The translations under genes were made by a program, and so were the position numbers. This document shows positions 1 through 37,308 of a stretch of 48,250 nucleotides of DNA, in pieces. Under the pieces are notes generated by a model. The model ran no database searches and was not told the origin of the DNA. It saw only the letters and a program-made list of their open reading frames with translations. Numbering within the stretch: position 1 is the stretch's first letter; the number at the start of each line of letters is the position of its first letter. The DNA is from Octopus sinensis (taxonomy: Eukaryota): contig NW_021834529.1 in NCBI RefSeq assembly GCF_006345805.1, positions 1 to 48,250 of the forward strand, read 5' to 3'.

Positions 1-213
1 CCCACGGATAACCTAATCTGTTTCCCCTTTTTACACTATGATATTTCTGTGATACACGATCCCAATTGATCGGCTTTTTTTTAACGGTCCCTTTTGATCG
101 AATGTCTACCACCTTTCCATTTTTTTTTCTTTTCCTTCTCTTCCTAGAAAGAAAAACTCTACTTTGTATTTTGTCCCTTCTGTGTTCAGCCCTGTGTGGC
201 CAATAAAGACACA
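1..213 (+). mobile_element. 3' UTR end of a Tx1-like LINE, related to the 24.1-30.2 kb element, running into (TCTA)n
   Basis: Shares blocks with 29820-30195 (ccacggataa, tgtgatacacgatccc, aaagaaaa.ctctac, cagccctgtgtggccaataaaga); followed directly by (TATC)n. Confidence 0.85.
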
Positions 214-871
214 TATCTATCTATCTATCTATCTATCTATCTATCTATCTATCTATCTATCTATCTATCTATCTATCTATCTATCTATCTATCTATCTAT
301 CTATCTATCCATCTATCTATCCATCTATCTATCTATCTATCTATCTATCTATCTATCTATCTATCTATCTATCTATCTATCGGTCTGTCTGTCTATCTGT
401 CTATCTCTCTCTCTCTCTCTCTCTCTCTCTATCTATCTACCTACCAACTAACCTACCTACCTACCTACCTACCTACCTACCTACATATATACATACATAC
501 ATATCTGTCTACCTACCTACCTACCTACCTACATACATACATACATATCTGTCTATCTACCTACCTACCTACCTGCCAACCTACCTACCTACCTACTACC
601 TACCTAACATACCTACATACCTACCTACCTACCTACCACCTACCTATCTATCTATCTATCTATCTATCTATCTATCTATCATATTCTATATCTATCTATC
701 TACTATCTATCTATCTATCTGTCTGTCTGTCTGTCTATCTATCTATCTATCTATCTATCTATCTATCATCTATCTATCTATCTATCTATCTATCTATCTA
801 TCTATCTGATCTGTCTGTCTGTCTATCTATCTATCTATCTATCTATCTATCTATCTATCTATCTATCTATC
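214..871. repeat. Compound microsatellite (TCTA)n/(CCTA)n/(CATA)n/(TCTG)n
   Basis: Directly visible tetranucleotide arrays. Confidence 0.97.
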
Positions 872-2287
872 GCTCTCCCAAATAAACTTGCACTTCATTT
901 TTGAAGCCCCGAGAAAGCGATAATGTAGTGCACAAGAACTGCGTTCTAAGTGCTTTGCATTATCTTTCAGCAGAAACAGCGGCAAGCTAATGAAGTGCAT
1001 TGCATAATTTCCTGTTCTTTTGCCATTTATTTAATTTCATATCTAGTCAGACAGAAAGCCATATAGGCATACGTTATAGAGATACAGACACACATATGTA
1101 CATACATACGTACCTACACACCCGCGTATATTAATATAAGCATGTTGTGTGTATGTGTGTGTATATTACATTCGTGTATACATAATGCATTTATATATAT
1201 ATATATATATATATATATATACACATACATACCATACATTATATATACATATAGTATATACACACATACATACCACGTATATATATGATATATATATATA
1301 TATCTTTACATATGTGTTTGTGGAGATGTATATGTATGCATACATACATACATACATACATACATACATACATACCGACATACATACATTACAATACCAT
1401 ACATACATAACATACAAATTGTATACGCATAGATAAAGAGGCGTTCTGTGTGTCGTCTATATGTGCTTGTTATATGTGTCTGCGAAATGAGGACATGGGT
1501 GGGTTGGAGACAATCCATTGTCAGCATATCCGTCAGTCACTATGTATATATGTCAATTATAGAACTAATGTAAATCGAGACACTCTCAGATTAGAATATG
1601 CAATAAATATAAATAATAAATAATGTAGGATATAAAAAAAAAAGAAAAACATTAAAAAATCTTGAGAGAAGAAAAACCGAAAATATATATATATATCTAT
1701 ACAAAACAAAAAAAAAATAATAATGTCATGTTTAAGCAGAAAGATAGATTGTCTTTTATGTCTCCACGAATGAAACTTATCTTATTGGAAGTCATTCGAG
1801 AAGTTATTTGCTACTAATTAGGGTACGTATGCATGCATACATGCATACATACATGCATACATACATGCATGAAAAACGAATGATGATGAGGAAGATGATA
1901 GTAGGGGTGGCCGACGGTCGGTGGTAGTAGTTGTTGCTGGGTGGTGTGGGGGTGGGGTGGTGGTGATGATAACGACGAGTGCCACGGTTTACTATGATGG
2001 ACGATGCATTCAGTGACTGTAATGATAAGTAATGATGACGCAATGATACATAATACAGACATACATACATCATACATACTACATACATGCATGCATGCAT
2101 ACATACATACATAACATACATGCATACATAATACATACATACATACATGCATGCATGCATGCATAAATACATACATACATACAAAACATACCATACATAC
2201 ATACATAATACATACATGCATGCATACATAATACATACATACATACCTAATTACATACATACATACATGCATACATACATATATATA

Positions 2288-2636
2288 CAACTGATATAAT
2301 GATTTGGGATAGAGAAGAGCAACTGTACCCATTATGGAAATAGCTGCCAGCGGATGTTTAAGCGAAGATCAGTGGAAAAGGGAGGTTCAGGTTTATACCT
2401 GTAATTATTGGGGCCCTGGGATATGTAACCCACTGCTTAAATACTAACCTTGAGAAATTAGGCTTCTGAAAACCAGAAAGGAGAAAGCTAATTCGAAGGC
2501 TTACACATCCAATCCATCACTGGAACTGTAAAAATCTGTAAAACTTTTCAGAAGTTCATCATTTGAATATATATAAGTATCTCTAGGTATGTAATTCTAT
2601 CCGTGAGAATACATACATAAAACATGCAAATCTGCA
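2288..2636 (+). mobile_element. 3' fragment of an R4/Dong-like RLE non-LTR retrotransposon in a (CATA)n array, copy 1
   Basis: Manual translation across frameshifts: DIMIWDREE...FRFIPVIIGALGYVTHCLNTNLEKLGF*KPERRKLIRRL..IQSITGTVKICKTFQKFII*, the typical RLE C-terminus; (CATA)n on both sides. Confidence 0.8.
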
Positions 2637-3057
2637 CATACATACATGCATGCATGCATACATACATACATACATACATACATACATACATACATACATA
2701 TATACATACGTTCGTACGTACGTACATACATACATACATACATACATACATACATACATACATACATACATACATACATACATACATACATACATGCATA
2801 CATTGATACATATATACATATATACATACTTACATACATGCATACATATATACATACATACATGCATACATACATACATATATACATATATACATGCATA
2901 CATACATACATATATACATATATACAACATACATGCATACATACATACATACATACATACCATGCATGCATGCATGCATACATACATACATACATACATT
3001 ACATACATACATACATACATAATACATTACATACATACATACATACATACATACATA

Positions 3058-3411
3058 CAACCTGATATAATGATTTGGCATAGAGAAGAGAAACTGTACC
3101 CAGTTATGGAAATTAGCTGCCCAGCGGATGTTTAAGCTGAAGATCAGTGGAAAAGGGAGGTTCAGGTTTATACCTGTAATTATTGGGGCCCTGGGATATG
3201 TAACTCACTGCTTAAATACTAACCTTGAGAAATTAGGCTTCTGAAAGTCTGAAAGGAGAAAGTTAATTCGAAGGCTTACACATCCAATCCATCACTGGAA
3301 CTGTAAAAATCTGTAAAACCTTTTAAAAGTTTATTATTTAAATATATATGAGCATGTCTAGATATGCAACTCTTTGCATGAGAATACATACATGAGACAT
3401 ACAAATCTGCA
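3058..3411 (+). mobile_element. 3' fragment of R4/Dong-like RLE element, copy 2
   Basis: Near-identical to 2288-2636; the ORF track shows QPDIMIWHREEKLYPVMEISCPADV (PD..E motif); flanked by (CATA)n. Confidence 0.8.
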
Positions 3412-3610
3412 CATACATACATAAAATACATACATACATACATACATACATACATACATGCATACATACAGGCATACATACATACATACATACATACATA
3501 CAACATACATGCATAAAGACATACCATACACTACATACATACATACATACATAATACATACATACATACATACATACATACATACATACATACATGCATA
3601 CATACATACA

Positions 3611-35181: not shown

Positions 35182-35233
35182 CATGCATACATACATATAT
35201 GCACACATGTTTACATGCATACATATATATATA

Positions 35234-35339
35234 CCCTGTTGTTGATGTTGAAATTCCCAATGAAGTAGCCTTGGATCTAGGTTAGAAACCGGTTCTTTCT
35301 CCATTGGCAAGAAATCTTGAAATATATCTGAATAATGAC
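35234..35339 (+). mobile_element. ~105-bp (CATA)n-associated repeat, copy 3
   Basis: Same start (ccctgttgttgatgttgaaatt) and end (tgaataatgacatac) as 4740-4842. Confidence 0.75.
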
Positions 35340-35799
35340 ATACACACGTTCATTTTTCCTTGTCCAGCTACCTTTCTAAATATTCTGTCTTAATAAGACC
35401 CTTGTGTCTCCATTAGCATATAATGTGTGTCTTTGTGTGTGTCTGTGTGCGCGCATGCACATGTGTGTGTGTGTGTGTGTCTCCCTCTCTCTCGCTATAT
35501 GTATGAATGTATATATACATACGTACGGACACACGCACGCGCGTATATTTAATGTTAATGCCTCATGTATTTTTATGATATCTGCTGATGCTGTTGCATA
35601 GGGAAGTTCAGATGACTTGAGCTGAAAGACTTAATTCTCAATTTGTAATTGTACTGTTGTGTTGTTTTTATGAATATACATCAATAAACACTGACACACA
35701 CACGCACACACGCATTTCACACGTGCACACACACACACACACACTTCACTCGTATACACACACACACACATACAAAGTCCGTGAAAGAGAAAAGTTAAC

Positions 35800-36770
35800 T
35801 GAGTTGGATATAGAAAGAGACAGATAGGAATAACACACGCAACCGTACTCTGAGATATGCCCAATACACATAGATAGAGAAATTAAGGCTAATAGGCCGG
35901 ATATAGGTTTTAGAGATGACCAAGAAAAAATGCTTTCTAATCGATGTATAAACAAATGACAATATTTCTCTAAAAGAAACGGAGAAACTTTCAAAATACA
36001 AAGATCTGGAAATAGAGGTAATTCGAATGTGGAGCCTAAAAACAGAAACAATTCCTATCATAATAGGCGCATTAGGTATGATAAAAAAACATTCACTCAA
36101 ATACATAACAAAAACGCCAGGACTTACAAGTATATATAGCATTACAGAAAACAGCTCTACAAGGCACAGCACACATCTTACGTAAAGCACTTTCAATAAA
36201 GTGAAAATAGCGCGGGAGTGGCTGTGTGCTAAGTAGCTTACTTACCAATCACGTGGTTCCGGGTTCTGTCCGACTGCGTCGCACCTTGTGTAAGTGTCTT
36301 CTCTATAGCCGACCAGAGCCTTGTGAGTGGATTTGGTAGACGGAAACTGAAAGAAGCCCGTCGTATATATGTATATGCATATATATATATATGTGTGTGT
36401 GTGTGTGTGTGTGTGTGTGTATGTGTGTGTGTGTGTGTGCGTGTATGTTTGTGTTTGAGTGTCTGTGTTTGTCCCCCGCCCCCCTGCATCGCTTGACAAC
36501 CGATGCTGGTGTGTTGTGTTTACGTCCCCGTAACTTAGCGGTTCGGCAAAGAGACCGATAGAATAAGTACTACGCTTACAAAGAATAAGTCTTGAGGTCG
36601 ATTTGCTCGACTAAAGGCGGTGCTTCAGCATGGCTGCAGTCACATAACTGAAACAAGTAAAAGAGTAAAAGAGTATCGGAACACTACAACAAACAACAGT
36701 ACATAGTCAAGGCACATAGAGCTGTGCCTGGTAGTGCAGTGAAAGCACGTGATAAAAATAAGACTACTGA
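35800..36770 (+). mobile_element. Dong/R4-like RLE LINE 3' part, interrupted by a SINE, ending in (AAT)n
   Basis: DMPIHIDREIKANRPDI..NISLKETEKLSKYKDLEIEVIRMWSLKTETIPIIIGALGMIKK..QKTALQGTAHILRKALSIK*; presumed UTR resumes at ~36675. Confidence 0.85.
36209..36674 (+). mobile_element. SINE family A nested in the RLE element
   Basis: Matches the family A consensus; internal (TG)n. Confidence 0.9.
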
Positions 36771-36864
36771 ATAATAATGATGATAATAATGATAATAATA
36801 ATTATAATATAATAATAATAATAATAATAATAATAATAATAATAATAATAATAATAATAATAAT

Positions 36865-37308
36865 CCCTGTGATCATAATATCTCGGCGAAAGAGTTTGAC
36901 AAGCTCAGAAAATATAAAGACCTACTCATTGAAATTGAGAAAATGTGGCATCTCAAGGCGGTTACAATACCAGTGATCGTAGGAGCACTAGGAATGATCA
37001 AGAAGGGAACCGAAAATTATATGAGAATGATCCCTGGCTTACCATCCCTGCAAGAAGTGCAAAAGATTATCTTAACTGGTACATCACACGTATTGAGAAG
37101 AGCATTGTCGATGTGAGAACTATTACTACCCATGTATTTTAATTTAACTTAAAAAAAATTTTTTTTTTAAATGAACGAACTAGTGAGTTTAGTTTAATGG
37201 CCTACCAATGTATACTTTGAGTTTGTTTGCCCTGGGAGTCGGGAAGACACTCGGCAAGAAATGGAAGCAAATTTGAAAGAAGAGGAAAAAAATAATAATA
37301 ACAATAAT
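36865..37308 (+). mobile_element. Second Dong-like RLE LINE 3' fragment, inserted in (AAT)n
   Basis: Open frame 36865-37116: PCDHNISAKEFDKLRKYKDLLIEIEKMWHLKAVTIPVIVGALGMIKKGTENYMRMIPGLPSLQEVQKIILTGTSHVLRRALSM*; (AAT)n upstream, aataataataacaataat downstream. Confidence 0.88.

What the first reader, a model, noticed from the sequence alone, without database searches (positions are those of the whole stretch)
1..37308. Apparent partitioning of microsatellite types among unrelated retroelements
Seen in one window: Tx1-like in (TCTA)n, RLE in (CATA)n sense, RTE-like in the same repeat antisense, Dong-like in (AAT)n, and Penelope pLTR pieces beside (TA)n. Inference: several enzyme classes may use different simple repeats as safe-harbour targets and, by duplicating or extending them on insertion, feed the high microsatellite load. 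Copy numbers here are small and background repeat density is high, so chance is a real alternative.
Basis: inference. Interest (0 to 1): 0.7.

Follow-up and report, generated by a model that had tools for sequence, protein, structure and literature searches.

The report
Retrotransposon families targeting their own microsatellites
In this genome, likely an octopus's, five kinds of jumping gene each sit inside a particular short DNA repeat, four of them in a fixed direction, likely because each seeks that repeat when it inserts; the behaviour is known, three of the pairings appear new, and these elements touch only a minority of the repeats.

Summary
At 5' junctions of other copies (window copies dropped; strict 12-bp perfect run): Tx1-like (TCTA)n 32 of 52, RTE (TATG)n 24 of 48, Dong-like (AAT)n 18 of 29, a second R4/Dong-related family (CATA)n 15 of 44, Penelope-like (TA)n 19 of 23. 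Opposite-strand calls number 0-1 per family; random positions give 0.2-0.4% (TA 2.4%). A CR1 control has (ATT)n tails in 29 of 29 copies but no repeat at 0 of 19 5' junctions, so tails alone do not make the pattern. Corrections: two window RLE copies are one duplicated insertion; the CATA run after the RLE ORF is inside its 3' UTR; motifs are shared, not partitioned. Feeding the microsatellite load is weakly supported: 1 of 84 CATA, 14 of 294 TA, 9 of 41 TCTA and 13 of 54 AAT arrays abut these families (lower bounds). Microsatellite targeting is known (Dong, Kibi, Koshi, Waldo, PLEs). Tx1-(TCTA)n, R4-type-(CATA)n and especially RTE-(TATG)n were not found in my searches. The scan earlier noted the Tx1, Dong and Penelope pairs on other DNA.

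The parts
1..213 (+). 3' remnant of the Tx1-like LINE, cut by the contig start; followed by (TATC)n 214-871
   Evidence: BLASTN to the full copy, 79-89%; TRF
2291..2636 (+). 5'-truncated R4/Dong-related LINE ('RLE-CATA'): end of the RLE domain and first part of the 3' UTR; (CATA)n 2046-2281 upstream
3060..3411 (+). Local duplicate of the RLE-CATA copy above (same 5' break, same 5-bp and 51-bp deletions)
   Evidence: alignment with four other copies
3612..4327 (-). 5'-truncated RTE-clade LINE inserted antisense into the CATA run that lies inside the RLE-CATA 3' UTR; (TATG)n on both sides on its own strand
4498..4842 (+). Distal ~100-bp part of the RLE-CATA 3' UTR, twice (4498-4597, 4741-4842); the element's true 3' end
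   Evidence: downstream on the same strand in 19 of 28 RLE loci; RLE upstream in 17 of 23 loci of this piece
8273..8487 (-). Penelope-like 3' end (pLTR) between (TA)n runs, hammerhead-like core words
   Evidence: (TA)n at the 3' end in 20 of 23 other copies; a related piece abuts a PLE RT ORF in L235; motif scan
10436..10632 (.). Fold-back Penelope-like end (inverted plus direct pLTR, tail on one side only) between (TA)n runs; parent ORF not found
   Evidence: (TA)n upstream in 19 of 23 and downstream in 18 of 23 other copies
11593..11770 (.). Second fold-back piece, likely Penelope-like; (ATAG)n on the left, (TA)n on the right; not searched genome-wide
   Evidence: self-inverted match; 7 hits in the random sample
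18775..18931 (+). 3' end of another R4-type or R4-dependent element with (AAT)24 tail
   Evidence: 11 hits in the random sample, most followed by AAT; found directly upstream of Dong-like copies L130, L133
24108..30195 (+). Full-length Tx1-like LINE (ORF1, APE endonuclease, RT; frameshifts and stops) between (TCTA)n arrays 24034-24107 and 30196-30340
   Evidence: Pfam Exo_endo_phos and RVT_1; flanks of other copies
33216..34284 (-). 5'-truncated Penelope-like element (end of GIY-YIG ORF, 3' UTR, pLTR); (TA)n 34285-34325 at the 5' junction
   Evidence: 96-97% to L152 and L235, where it is contiguous with an RT plus GIY-YIG ORF
34548..35338 (+). Independent RLE-CATA 3' fragment (34548-34760 and 35235-35338) with a SINE inserted in its internal CATA run
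35771..36864 (+). Second R4-type family, about 50% identical to the Dong-like protein (35771-36200, SINE, 36663-36770) with (AAT)32 tail; 5' flank is (CA)n
   Evidence: tblastn
36865..37308 (+). 5'-truncated Dong-like LINE (RLE domain and 3' UTR) inserted in the AAT tail of the element before it

Best explanation
Five retroelement families of four enzyme classes sit in family-specific microsatellites, likely because each inserts by target-primed reverse transcription into a repeat array that was already there. Shown: the repeat and its strand at both junctions, for copies truncated at many different points: Tx1-like in (TCTA)n, RTE in (TATG)n, Dong-like in (AAT)n, a second R4/Dong-related lineage in (CATA)n, Penelope-like ends in (TA)n. 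Inferred: the endonuclease (APE, RLE or GIY-YIG) nicks one strand of its repeat and the RNA 3' end, which carries the same repeat, pairs with the nick to prime; which of the two steps selects the site is not resolved, but the CR1 control shows that a repeat tail alone is not enough. Inferred: each insertion adds at most tens of bases (tail, target duplication, and for RLE-CATA an internal run), and arrays left by earlier retroposons serve as new targets, which gives head-to-tail stacks. The families exploit the microsatellite load more than they explain it.
For: 5' junction table: Tx1 full-length 20 of 29 (0 antisense), RLE-CATA 13 of 28 (0), RTE 14 of 29 (1), Dong-like 18 of 29 (0), Penelope fold-back 19 of 23; random positions 0.2-0.4%, TA 2.4%. 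Second sets: truncated Tx1 12 of 23 plus 4 in TACC/TCTG variants, long RTE copies 10 of 19. Controls: CR1 (ATT)n tail 29 of 29, repeat at 5' junction 0 of 19 (against Dong Fisher p 7e-6); SINE heads no repeat in 64 of 72 and 50 of 59. Flanks are target-derived: Tx1 L291 has a 32-bp duplication with 7 impure positions; Tx1 L313 has TACC on both sides; the only two RTE copies with (TA)n 3' flanks (L072, L083) also have (TA)n 5' flanks. Nested targets: RTE or its short derivative lies antisense inside the RLE internal CATA run in the window, L038 and L273; 4 of 19 Dong-like copies follow an R4-type 3' end. One site (L125): contigs of organism C in runs X10 and X15 align to the left flank up to the RTE 5' junction and end 6-7 letters later, while the X5 contig runs 29 bases into the element, which fits a site that is empty in C.
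Against: Only 2 of 16 long, old RLE-CATA copies had CATA at the called 5' junction, and 1 had the antisense motif. A third to two thirds of junctions in each family have no strict repeat; some are visibly later deletions or nested SINEs, others were not explained. Informative duplications are rare: 1 of 22 Tx1, 0 of 30 Dong, 0 of 17 RLE, and 1 of 30 RTE and 2 of 23 Penelope at about null level. In the random sample, RTE, RLE-CATA and Dong-like copies were too few (3, 2 and 6 hits) for an unbiased count, so the table rests on the best 19-30 hits of about 600-3000 candidates per search. No empty array could be read. A few loci are duplicates of each other (L140/L145, L169/L177, L268/L278).
Confidence: 0.85

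Rival explanations
1. The repeats at both ends are made during insertion (the RT copies the tail repeat again at the 5' joint), so elements create arrays at sites that had none.
For: The 5' repeat always has the strand and motif of the 3' repeat. Summed flanks exceed a length-biased background: Tx1 median 142 vs 100, Dong 148 vs 71, RTE 96 vs 55. 5' arrays tend to be longer than 3' arrays for Dong and RLE (p 0.015, 0.023).
Against: CR1 has a tail and no 5' repeat. Variant arrays match on both sides of single copies (L291, L313, L072, L083). Insertions lie in arrays of known prior origin. The L125 site appears empty in organism C with the flank aligned through the TATG run.
Confidence: 0.07
2. 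Elements insert at random; copies survive or are trimmed preferentially inside repeats (selection, or recombination between a tail and a nearby like repeat), or chance in a repeat-rich genome.
For: Period 1-6 repeats cover 9.1% of the random sample; passive accumulation was proposed for Drosophila Waldo (PMC3812793, passage).
Against: Survival cannot give family-specific motifs on one strand (65 sense vs 1 antisense calls over four families); young Tx1 copies (98% identical) show it; the equally young CR1 and the SINEs do not.
Confidence: 0.04
3. The endonucleases are only loosely AT-preferring and the site is chosen wholly by base pairing between a long RNA repeat tail (read through from the donor's flank) and any nicked like repeat, so specificity is inherited from the donor site, not from the protein. 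This is a variant of the best explanation, most plausible for RTE and the Penelope-like ends.
For: RTE tails were proposed to steer cleavage or priming (PMC6007223, passages). This RTE also uses (TA)n: 3 of 29 and 3 of 19 5' junctions.
Against: CR1 tail without targeting. The Tx1 3' joint keeps one phase in most copies and tolerates TACC. Endonuclease-set specificity is the standing model for Tx1 and RLE clades (PMC4494074, PMC7998251, passages).
Confidence: 0.3

Closest known systems
Dong (R4 clade) in (TAA)n: Bombyx Dong, DongAg, snail DongBg, ostracod Dong (PMC3812793 and PMC7998251, passages)
   Same: RT + CCHC + RLE, no N-terminal zinc finger, same repeat; the target is stated for most insects, molluscs and cnidarians. 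Dong-R4 is the largest recently active LINE group in O. vulgaris (PMC13282606, Table 1).
   Different: Nothing of substance for the AAT family. The CATA lineage is 37-40% identical in RT through its relatives, forms its own long branch and carries an internal microsatellite in its 3' UTR.
Tx1-clade Kibi (TC)n, Koshi (TTC)n, crocodilian Tx1 in (TTCC)n/(TTTC)n (PMC4494074, passages)
   Same: Two ORFs, APE + RT, pyrimidine-rich repeat on the sense strand at both ends.
   Different: Target (TCTA)n; invertebrate host; relation to Kibi/Koshi not tested by tree.
Waldo (ACAY) and Mino (AC) of the R1 clade (PMC3812793, passage)
   Same: ACAT is an ACAY repeat; Anopheles holds Waldo, Mino and Dong together, so several targets in one genome has precedent.
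   Different: Here ACAT is used by an RLE element and, on the other strand, by an RTE: different clades and enzymes.
RTE-clade LINEs with microsatellite tails and the Tn-TA signature (PMC2887409 abstract; PMC6007223, PMC13295347 passages); RTE-2_OV (PMC9115989, passages)
   Same: Single ORF APE + RT, C-terminal C2H2 fingers, about 600-nt 5' UTR, microsatellite starting just after the ORF.
   Different: Those papers describe the repeat as a 3' tail with at most 1-2 bases of target microhomology; here the repeat is also at half of the 5' junctions. Identity with RTE-2_OV was not tested.
EN+ Penelope-like elements, Neptune and Naiad, in (TA)n (PMC8557442, passages)
   Same: GIY-YIG with an upstream Cys-rich linker, pLTR, inverted 5'-truncated copy, one-sided tail, (TA)n bias.
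   Different: None found; the parent of the fold-back pieces was not identified.
Microsatellite seeding by CR1-L3 in snakes (PMC6050309, passages)
   Same: A CR1 that leaves a repeat tail at each insertion, as the control CR1 does here.
   Different: That study tested adjacency at the tail; the five window families also have the repeat at the 5' junction.

Membership tests
Target-specific non-LTR family (criterion of PMC4494074: one sequence type in more than 20% of flanks) | Repeat in more than 20% of flanks, at 5' as well as 3' junctions | tested here: met
   Tx1 32 of 52, RTE 24 of 48, Dong-like 18 of 29, RLE-CATA 15 of 44 at 5' junctions; the long RLE-CATA subset alone, 2 of 16, does not meet it
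Target-specific non-LTR family | Sequence-specific nicking by the element's endonuclease | not testable with these tools
   needs biochemistry or a cell assay
Tx1 clade | Two ORFs; ORF2 with APE and RT | tested here: met
Tx1 clade | RT groups with named Tx1 elements in a tree | not tested
R4/Dong clade (AAT family) | Single ORF RT + CCHC + RLE, no N-terminal C2H2 finger | tested here: met
   ORFs of L129, L130, L133; RVT_1 and zf-RVT; only R2 proteins match in the PDB; no C2H2 in the N-termini of three full-length homologues
R4/Dong clade (AAT family) | N-terminal SANT/Myb-like domain (PMC7998251) | tested here: inconclusive
   no Pfam Myb/SANT hit at E 10; the paper needed HHpred on an alignment
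R4/Dong clade (CATA family) | Same architecture and N-terminus as Dong-like proteins | tested here: met
   relatives P0121-P0123 match a Dong-like N-terminal profile at E 1e-14 to 1e-18 (high composition bias), and P0121 and P0122 have no N-terminal C2H2 and a C-terminal CCHC-type motif; the genome's own N-terminal fragment did not match
R4/Dong clade (CATA family) | RT nests among named R4/Dong elements | tested here: inconclusive
   own clade 100/100, joined to one Dong-like homologue at 87/91; outgroups on very long branches and no named references
RTE clade | Single ORF APE + RT, very short 3' UTR ending in a microsatellite | tested here: met
   ORFs of L123, L125; Exo_endo_phos; (ATGT)n 3' of 23 of 29 copies
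RTE clade | Tn-TA insertion signature with 13+ bp TSD | tested here: inconclusive
   junctions lie in repeats; no informative TSD above null
Penelope-like elements | pLTR contiguous with an RT + GIY-YIG ORF | tested here: met
   met for 33216-34284; indirect for 8273-8487; not found for 10436-10632 and 11593-11770
Penelope-like elements | Hammerhead ribozyme in the pLTR | tested here: inconclusive
   recalled core words found in three pieces; no Rfam hammerhead match in 4400-12100 at E 5

The most novel reading that the evidence does not exclude
An RTE-clade LINE has independently gained strand-specific microsatellite targeting and uses the same (CATA)n/(TATG)n duplex as an R4/Dong-related LINE in the opposite direction, inside a retroposon food web: untargeted CR1 and SINE tails and a repeat carried inside the RLE 3' UTR seed arrays, and at least five enzyme lineages then consume them.
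Probability: 0.55. Interest if true: 0.65.

Novelty: new variant of a known kind. Interest (0 to 1): 0.5.

Why it matters
Most target-specific LINEs belong to the early-branched, Tx1 and R1 groups (PMC4640811, passage), so a targeting RTE would be a further independent origin. One genome offers matched pairs for the open question of whether the endonuclease or the RNA tail picks the site: same repeat with two enzymes on opposite strands (RTE, RLE-CATA), related enzymes with different repeats (AAT vs CATA), and a tail without targeting (CR1). It also warns that adjacency at the 3' end alone cannot tell seeding from targeting, and that octopus microsatellite markers may often sit on multi-copy flanks.

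Tried and rejected
Chance and passive survival: rejected. The 100-bp piece at 4498/4741/35235 was first taken for a separate SINE or a Penelope hammerhead piece; linkage shows it is the RLE-CATA 3' end; its hammerhead-like words got no Rfam match and the predicted fold does not support one. Empty-site test at the window's Tx1: no joint across the element was listed and runs X22-X24 barely covered it; uninformative. Empty-site test at L125: suggestive, array length unreadable; run X20 gave no listed piece there. TSD search: mostly blind in pure repeats. The 800-kb random sample was too small for RTE, RLE-CATA and Dong-like copies. In one search one SINE control was read in the wrong orientation (its rows show the 3' side); it was redone. 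Pfam and pairwise BLASTP did not show the R4 N-terminal domain. The parent ORF of the fold-back pieces was not found among fetched loci. Literature searches gave no report of Tx1-(TCTA)n, R4-type-(CATA)n or RTE-(TATG)n; Repbase and Kojima and Fujiwara 2004 were not available, and no supplements were opened, so these pairs may be on record there.
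Full report
Setting. The window is the whole of contig C11000 of a 2.72-Gb genome. It is likely an octopus: the abundant tRNA-headed SINEs look like octopus SINEs (recalled, no call), the LINE mix matches that reported for O. vulgaris (PMC13282606, first third of the text read), and earlier scan notes say the same. The window is richer in short repeats than the genome: 12% vs 7% of random positions lie next to a perfect run.

Observation. The five associations are present as described. Protein evidence: the Tx1-like copy has APE and RT domains; longer genomic copies give APE + RT + C2H2 for the RTE and RT + CCHC + RLE for the Dong-like and the CATA family; the piece at 33216-34284 is contiguous in L152 and L235 with an RT plus GIY-YIG ORF that has a Cys-rich linker, as in Neptune-type Penelope elements. 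Clade names rest on architecture, not on trees with named references. Three corrections. The RLE copies at 2291 and 3060 are one insertion duplicated. The CATA run after the RLE ORF is inside the element: a 100-bp piece follows it on the same strand in 19 of 28 loci, and the RLE precedes that piece in 17 of 23; the spacer has a median of 84 bp over 18 listed distances. The window's RTE sits antisense inside that internal run.

Genome-wide test. I took the best 19-30 loci of each search, dropped the window's own copies and copies running off the locus, placed 5' junctions by comparing copies, and called the nearest perfect run of 12 bp or more ending within 12 bp, by strand. First sets: Tx1 full-length (TCTA)n 20 of 29; RLE-CATA (CATA)n 13 of 28; RTE (TATG)n 14 of 29; Dong-like (AAT)n 18 of 29; fold-back Penelope piece (TA)n 19 of 23. 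Antisense calls: 0, 0, 1, 0. No family was called in another family's motif on its sense strand, except 3 RTE and 1 Tx1 junction in (TA)n and the 1 RTE junction in (CATA)n. Background from 20,000 positions in 80 random 10-kb stretches: 0.2-0.4% per motif and strand, TA 2.4%. Second sets: truncated Tx1 12 of 23, with 4 more in TACC or TCTG variants; long RTE copies 10 of 19, with 3 in TA; long, older RLE-CATA copies only 2 of 16, with 1 antisense. Five long RTE copies share one upstream sequence, so their junctions may be misplaced. Controls: SINE heads show no run in 64 of 72 and 50 of 59. A young CR1 from the random sample ends in (ATT)n in 29 of 29 copies and has a run at 0 of 19 5' junctions.

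Mechanism. Because truncation points differ, the 5' repeat cannot be part of the element. That it comes from the target is shown by single copies: a 32-bp duplication with 7 impure positions around Tx1 L291, TACC arrays on both sides of L313, and (TA)n on both sides of RTE L072 and L083. Insertions also fall into arrays of known origin: RTE or a short RTE derivative in the RLE internal run (window, L038, L273), Dong-like copies behind R4-type 3' ends in 4 of 19 and against an antisense SINE end in 3 of 19. At one RTE site (L125), contigs of organism C in two studies stop 6-7 letters after the 5' junction while a contig of organism B continues 29 bases into the element; I read this as empty in C, but the extra letters are not shown and n is 1. 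The best model is target-primed insertion into existing arrays, with nicking of one strand and priming helped by the matching RNA end. The enzyme steps are inferred from what is reported for Tx1, R4/Dong and PLE families (PMC4494074, PMC7998251, PMC8557442, passages), not shown here.

Do they feed the load? Partly at most. Summed flanking arrays exceed a length-biased background for Tx1 (median 142 vs 100 bp, 16 copies), Dong-like (148 vs 71, 19) and RTE (96 vs 55, 16), marginally for RLE-CATA (90 vs 62, 11, p 0.07) and not for the Penelope piece (60 vs 60, 21). A taste for long arrays would give the same result, and the background includes split arrays. In the random 800 kb, arrays of 24 bp or more that abut a matching family from this window number 9 of 41 (TCTA), 13 of 54 (AAT), 1 of 84 (CATA) and 14 of 294 (TA); the library was small, so these are lower bounds, and adjacency does not give cause. 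Direct seeding is clearest for the untargeted CR1 (tails 18-42 bp, median 26, 29 copies) and for the internal RLE run.

Comparison with what is known. Microsatellite targets are on record for Waldo (ACAY), Mino (AC), Kibi (TC), Koshi (TTC) and Dong (TAA, including a snail) (PMC3812793, passage), crocodilian Tx1 (PMC4494074), Togen and some Hero (PMC4640811) and PLEs in (TA)n (PMC8557442). Anopheles holds three such targets, so coexistence has precedent. MULE-type elements stacking in microsatellites are known in plants (PMC5907723, abstract). RTE papers describe tails and a Tn-TA signature, and propose that the tail may shift the site (PMC2887409 abstract; PMC6007223 and PMC13295347 passages). 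The two octopus papers read do not report targets in the passages seen. Ten searches found no Tx1-(TCTA)n, R4-type-(CATA)n or RTE-(TATG)n; Repbase and paper supplements were not seen. The CATA family is a distinct lineage: its four closest full-length relatives are 37-40% identical to the Dong-like RT and form their own clade.

Earlier scan notes report the Tx1-TATC, Dong-TAA and Penelope-TA pairs on other contigs, a further Tx1 in AAT/ATT, and a CR1 that only ends in the repeat; the last gave me the lead for the control. None of the 16 notes shown covers RTE-(TATG)n or the CATA family.

Verdict. Real and strong; a known behaviour with two known pairs and three apparently unreported ones, of which the RTE is the most notable. 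'Partitioning' should read 'family-specific but shared targets', and the seeding claim stays open and probably modest. Interest 0.5.

Noticed in passing
window 13960-16150 (-): Decayed piggyBac-like transposase (Pfam DDE_Tnp_1_7, zf-Tnp_2), flanked by a diverged ~220-bp direct repeat (13624-13846 / 16207-16423).
   Followed up: no
window 5528-6143: 27-bp minisatellite, 23 copies, directly before a SINE half at 6176; possibly an amplified piece of the SINE's internal repeat.
   Followed up: no
window 44128-45594: Penelope-like element with the RT part on - and the GIY-YIG part on + (5' inversion), ending at (TA)n 45595; outside the finding's range, fits the TA rule.
   Followed up: partly
window 21400-23500 (-): Heavily decayed sequence with a few words reminiscent of a Penelope RT (recalled); no tblastn hit with LINE probes.
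   Followed up: partly
L038, L273, L192; joints: A short non-autonomous RTE derivative (5' ~525 bp joined to the last ~45 bp), abundant in runs X5 and X20; two of three copies seen lie antisense in CATA runs.
   Followed up: partly
L126, L327, L331, L332, L333: Five long RTE copies share one T-rich upstream sequence: a longer 5' end, a 5' transduction or a second target.
   Followed up: no
L135 and L112: Dong-like copies inserted in short AAT runs inside other mobile elements (a tRNA-headed element in L135); paralogues of those hosts could serve as empty sites.
   Followed up: no
L073: About 30 bp upstream of an RTE copy is the reverse complement of sequence just downstream of it.
   Followed up: no
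L358-L387: CR1 family with copies over 99% identical to L197 and 937 candidates: very recent activity.
   Followed up: partly
window 23400-30900, runs X22-X24: Raw-read runs with the same species label as X18 barely cover the high-copy Tx1 at 90% likeness: a filter effect or a different species under one label.
   Followed up: no
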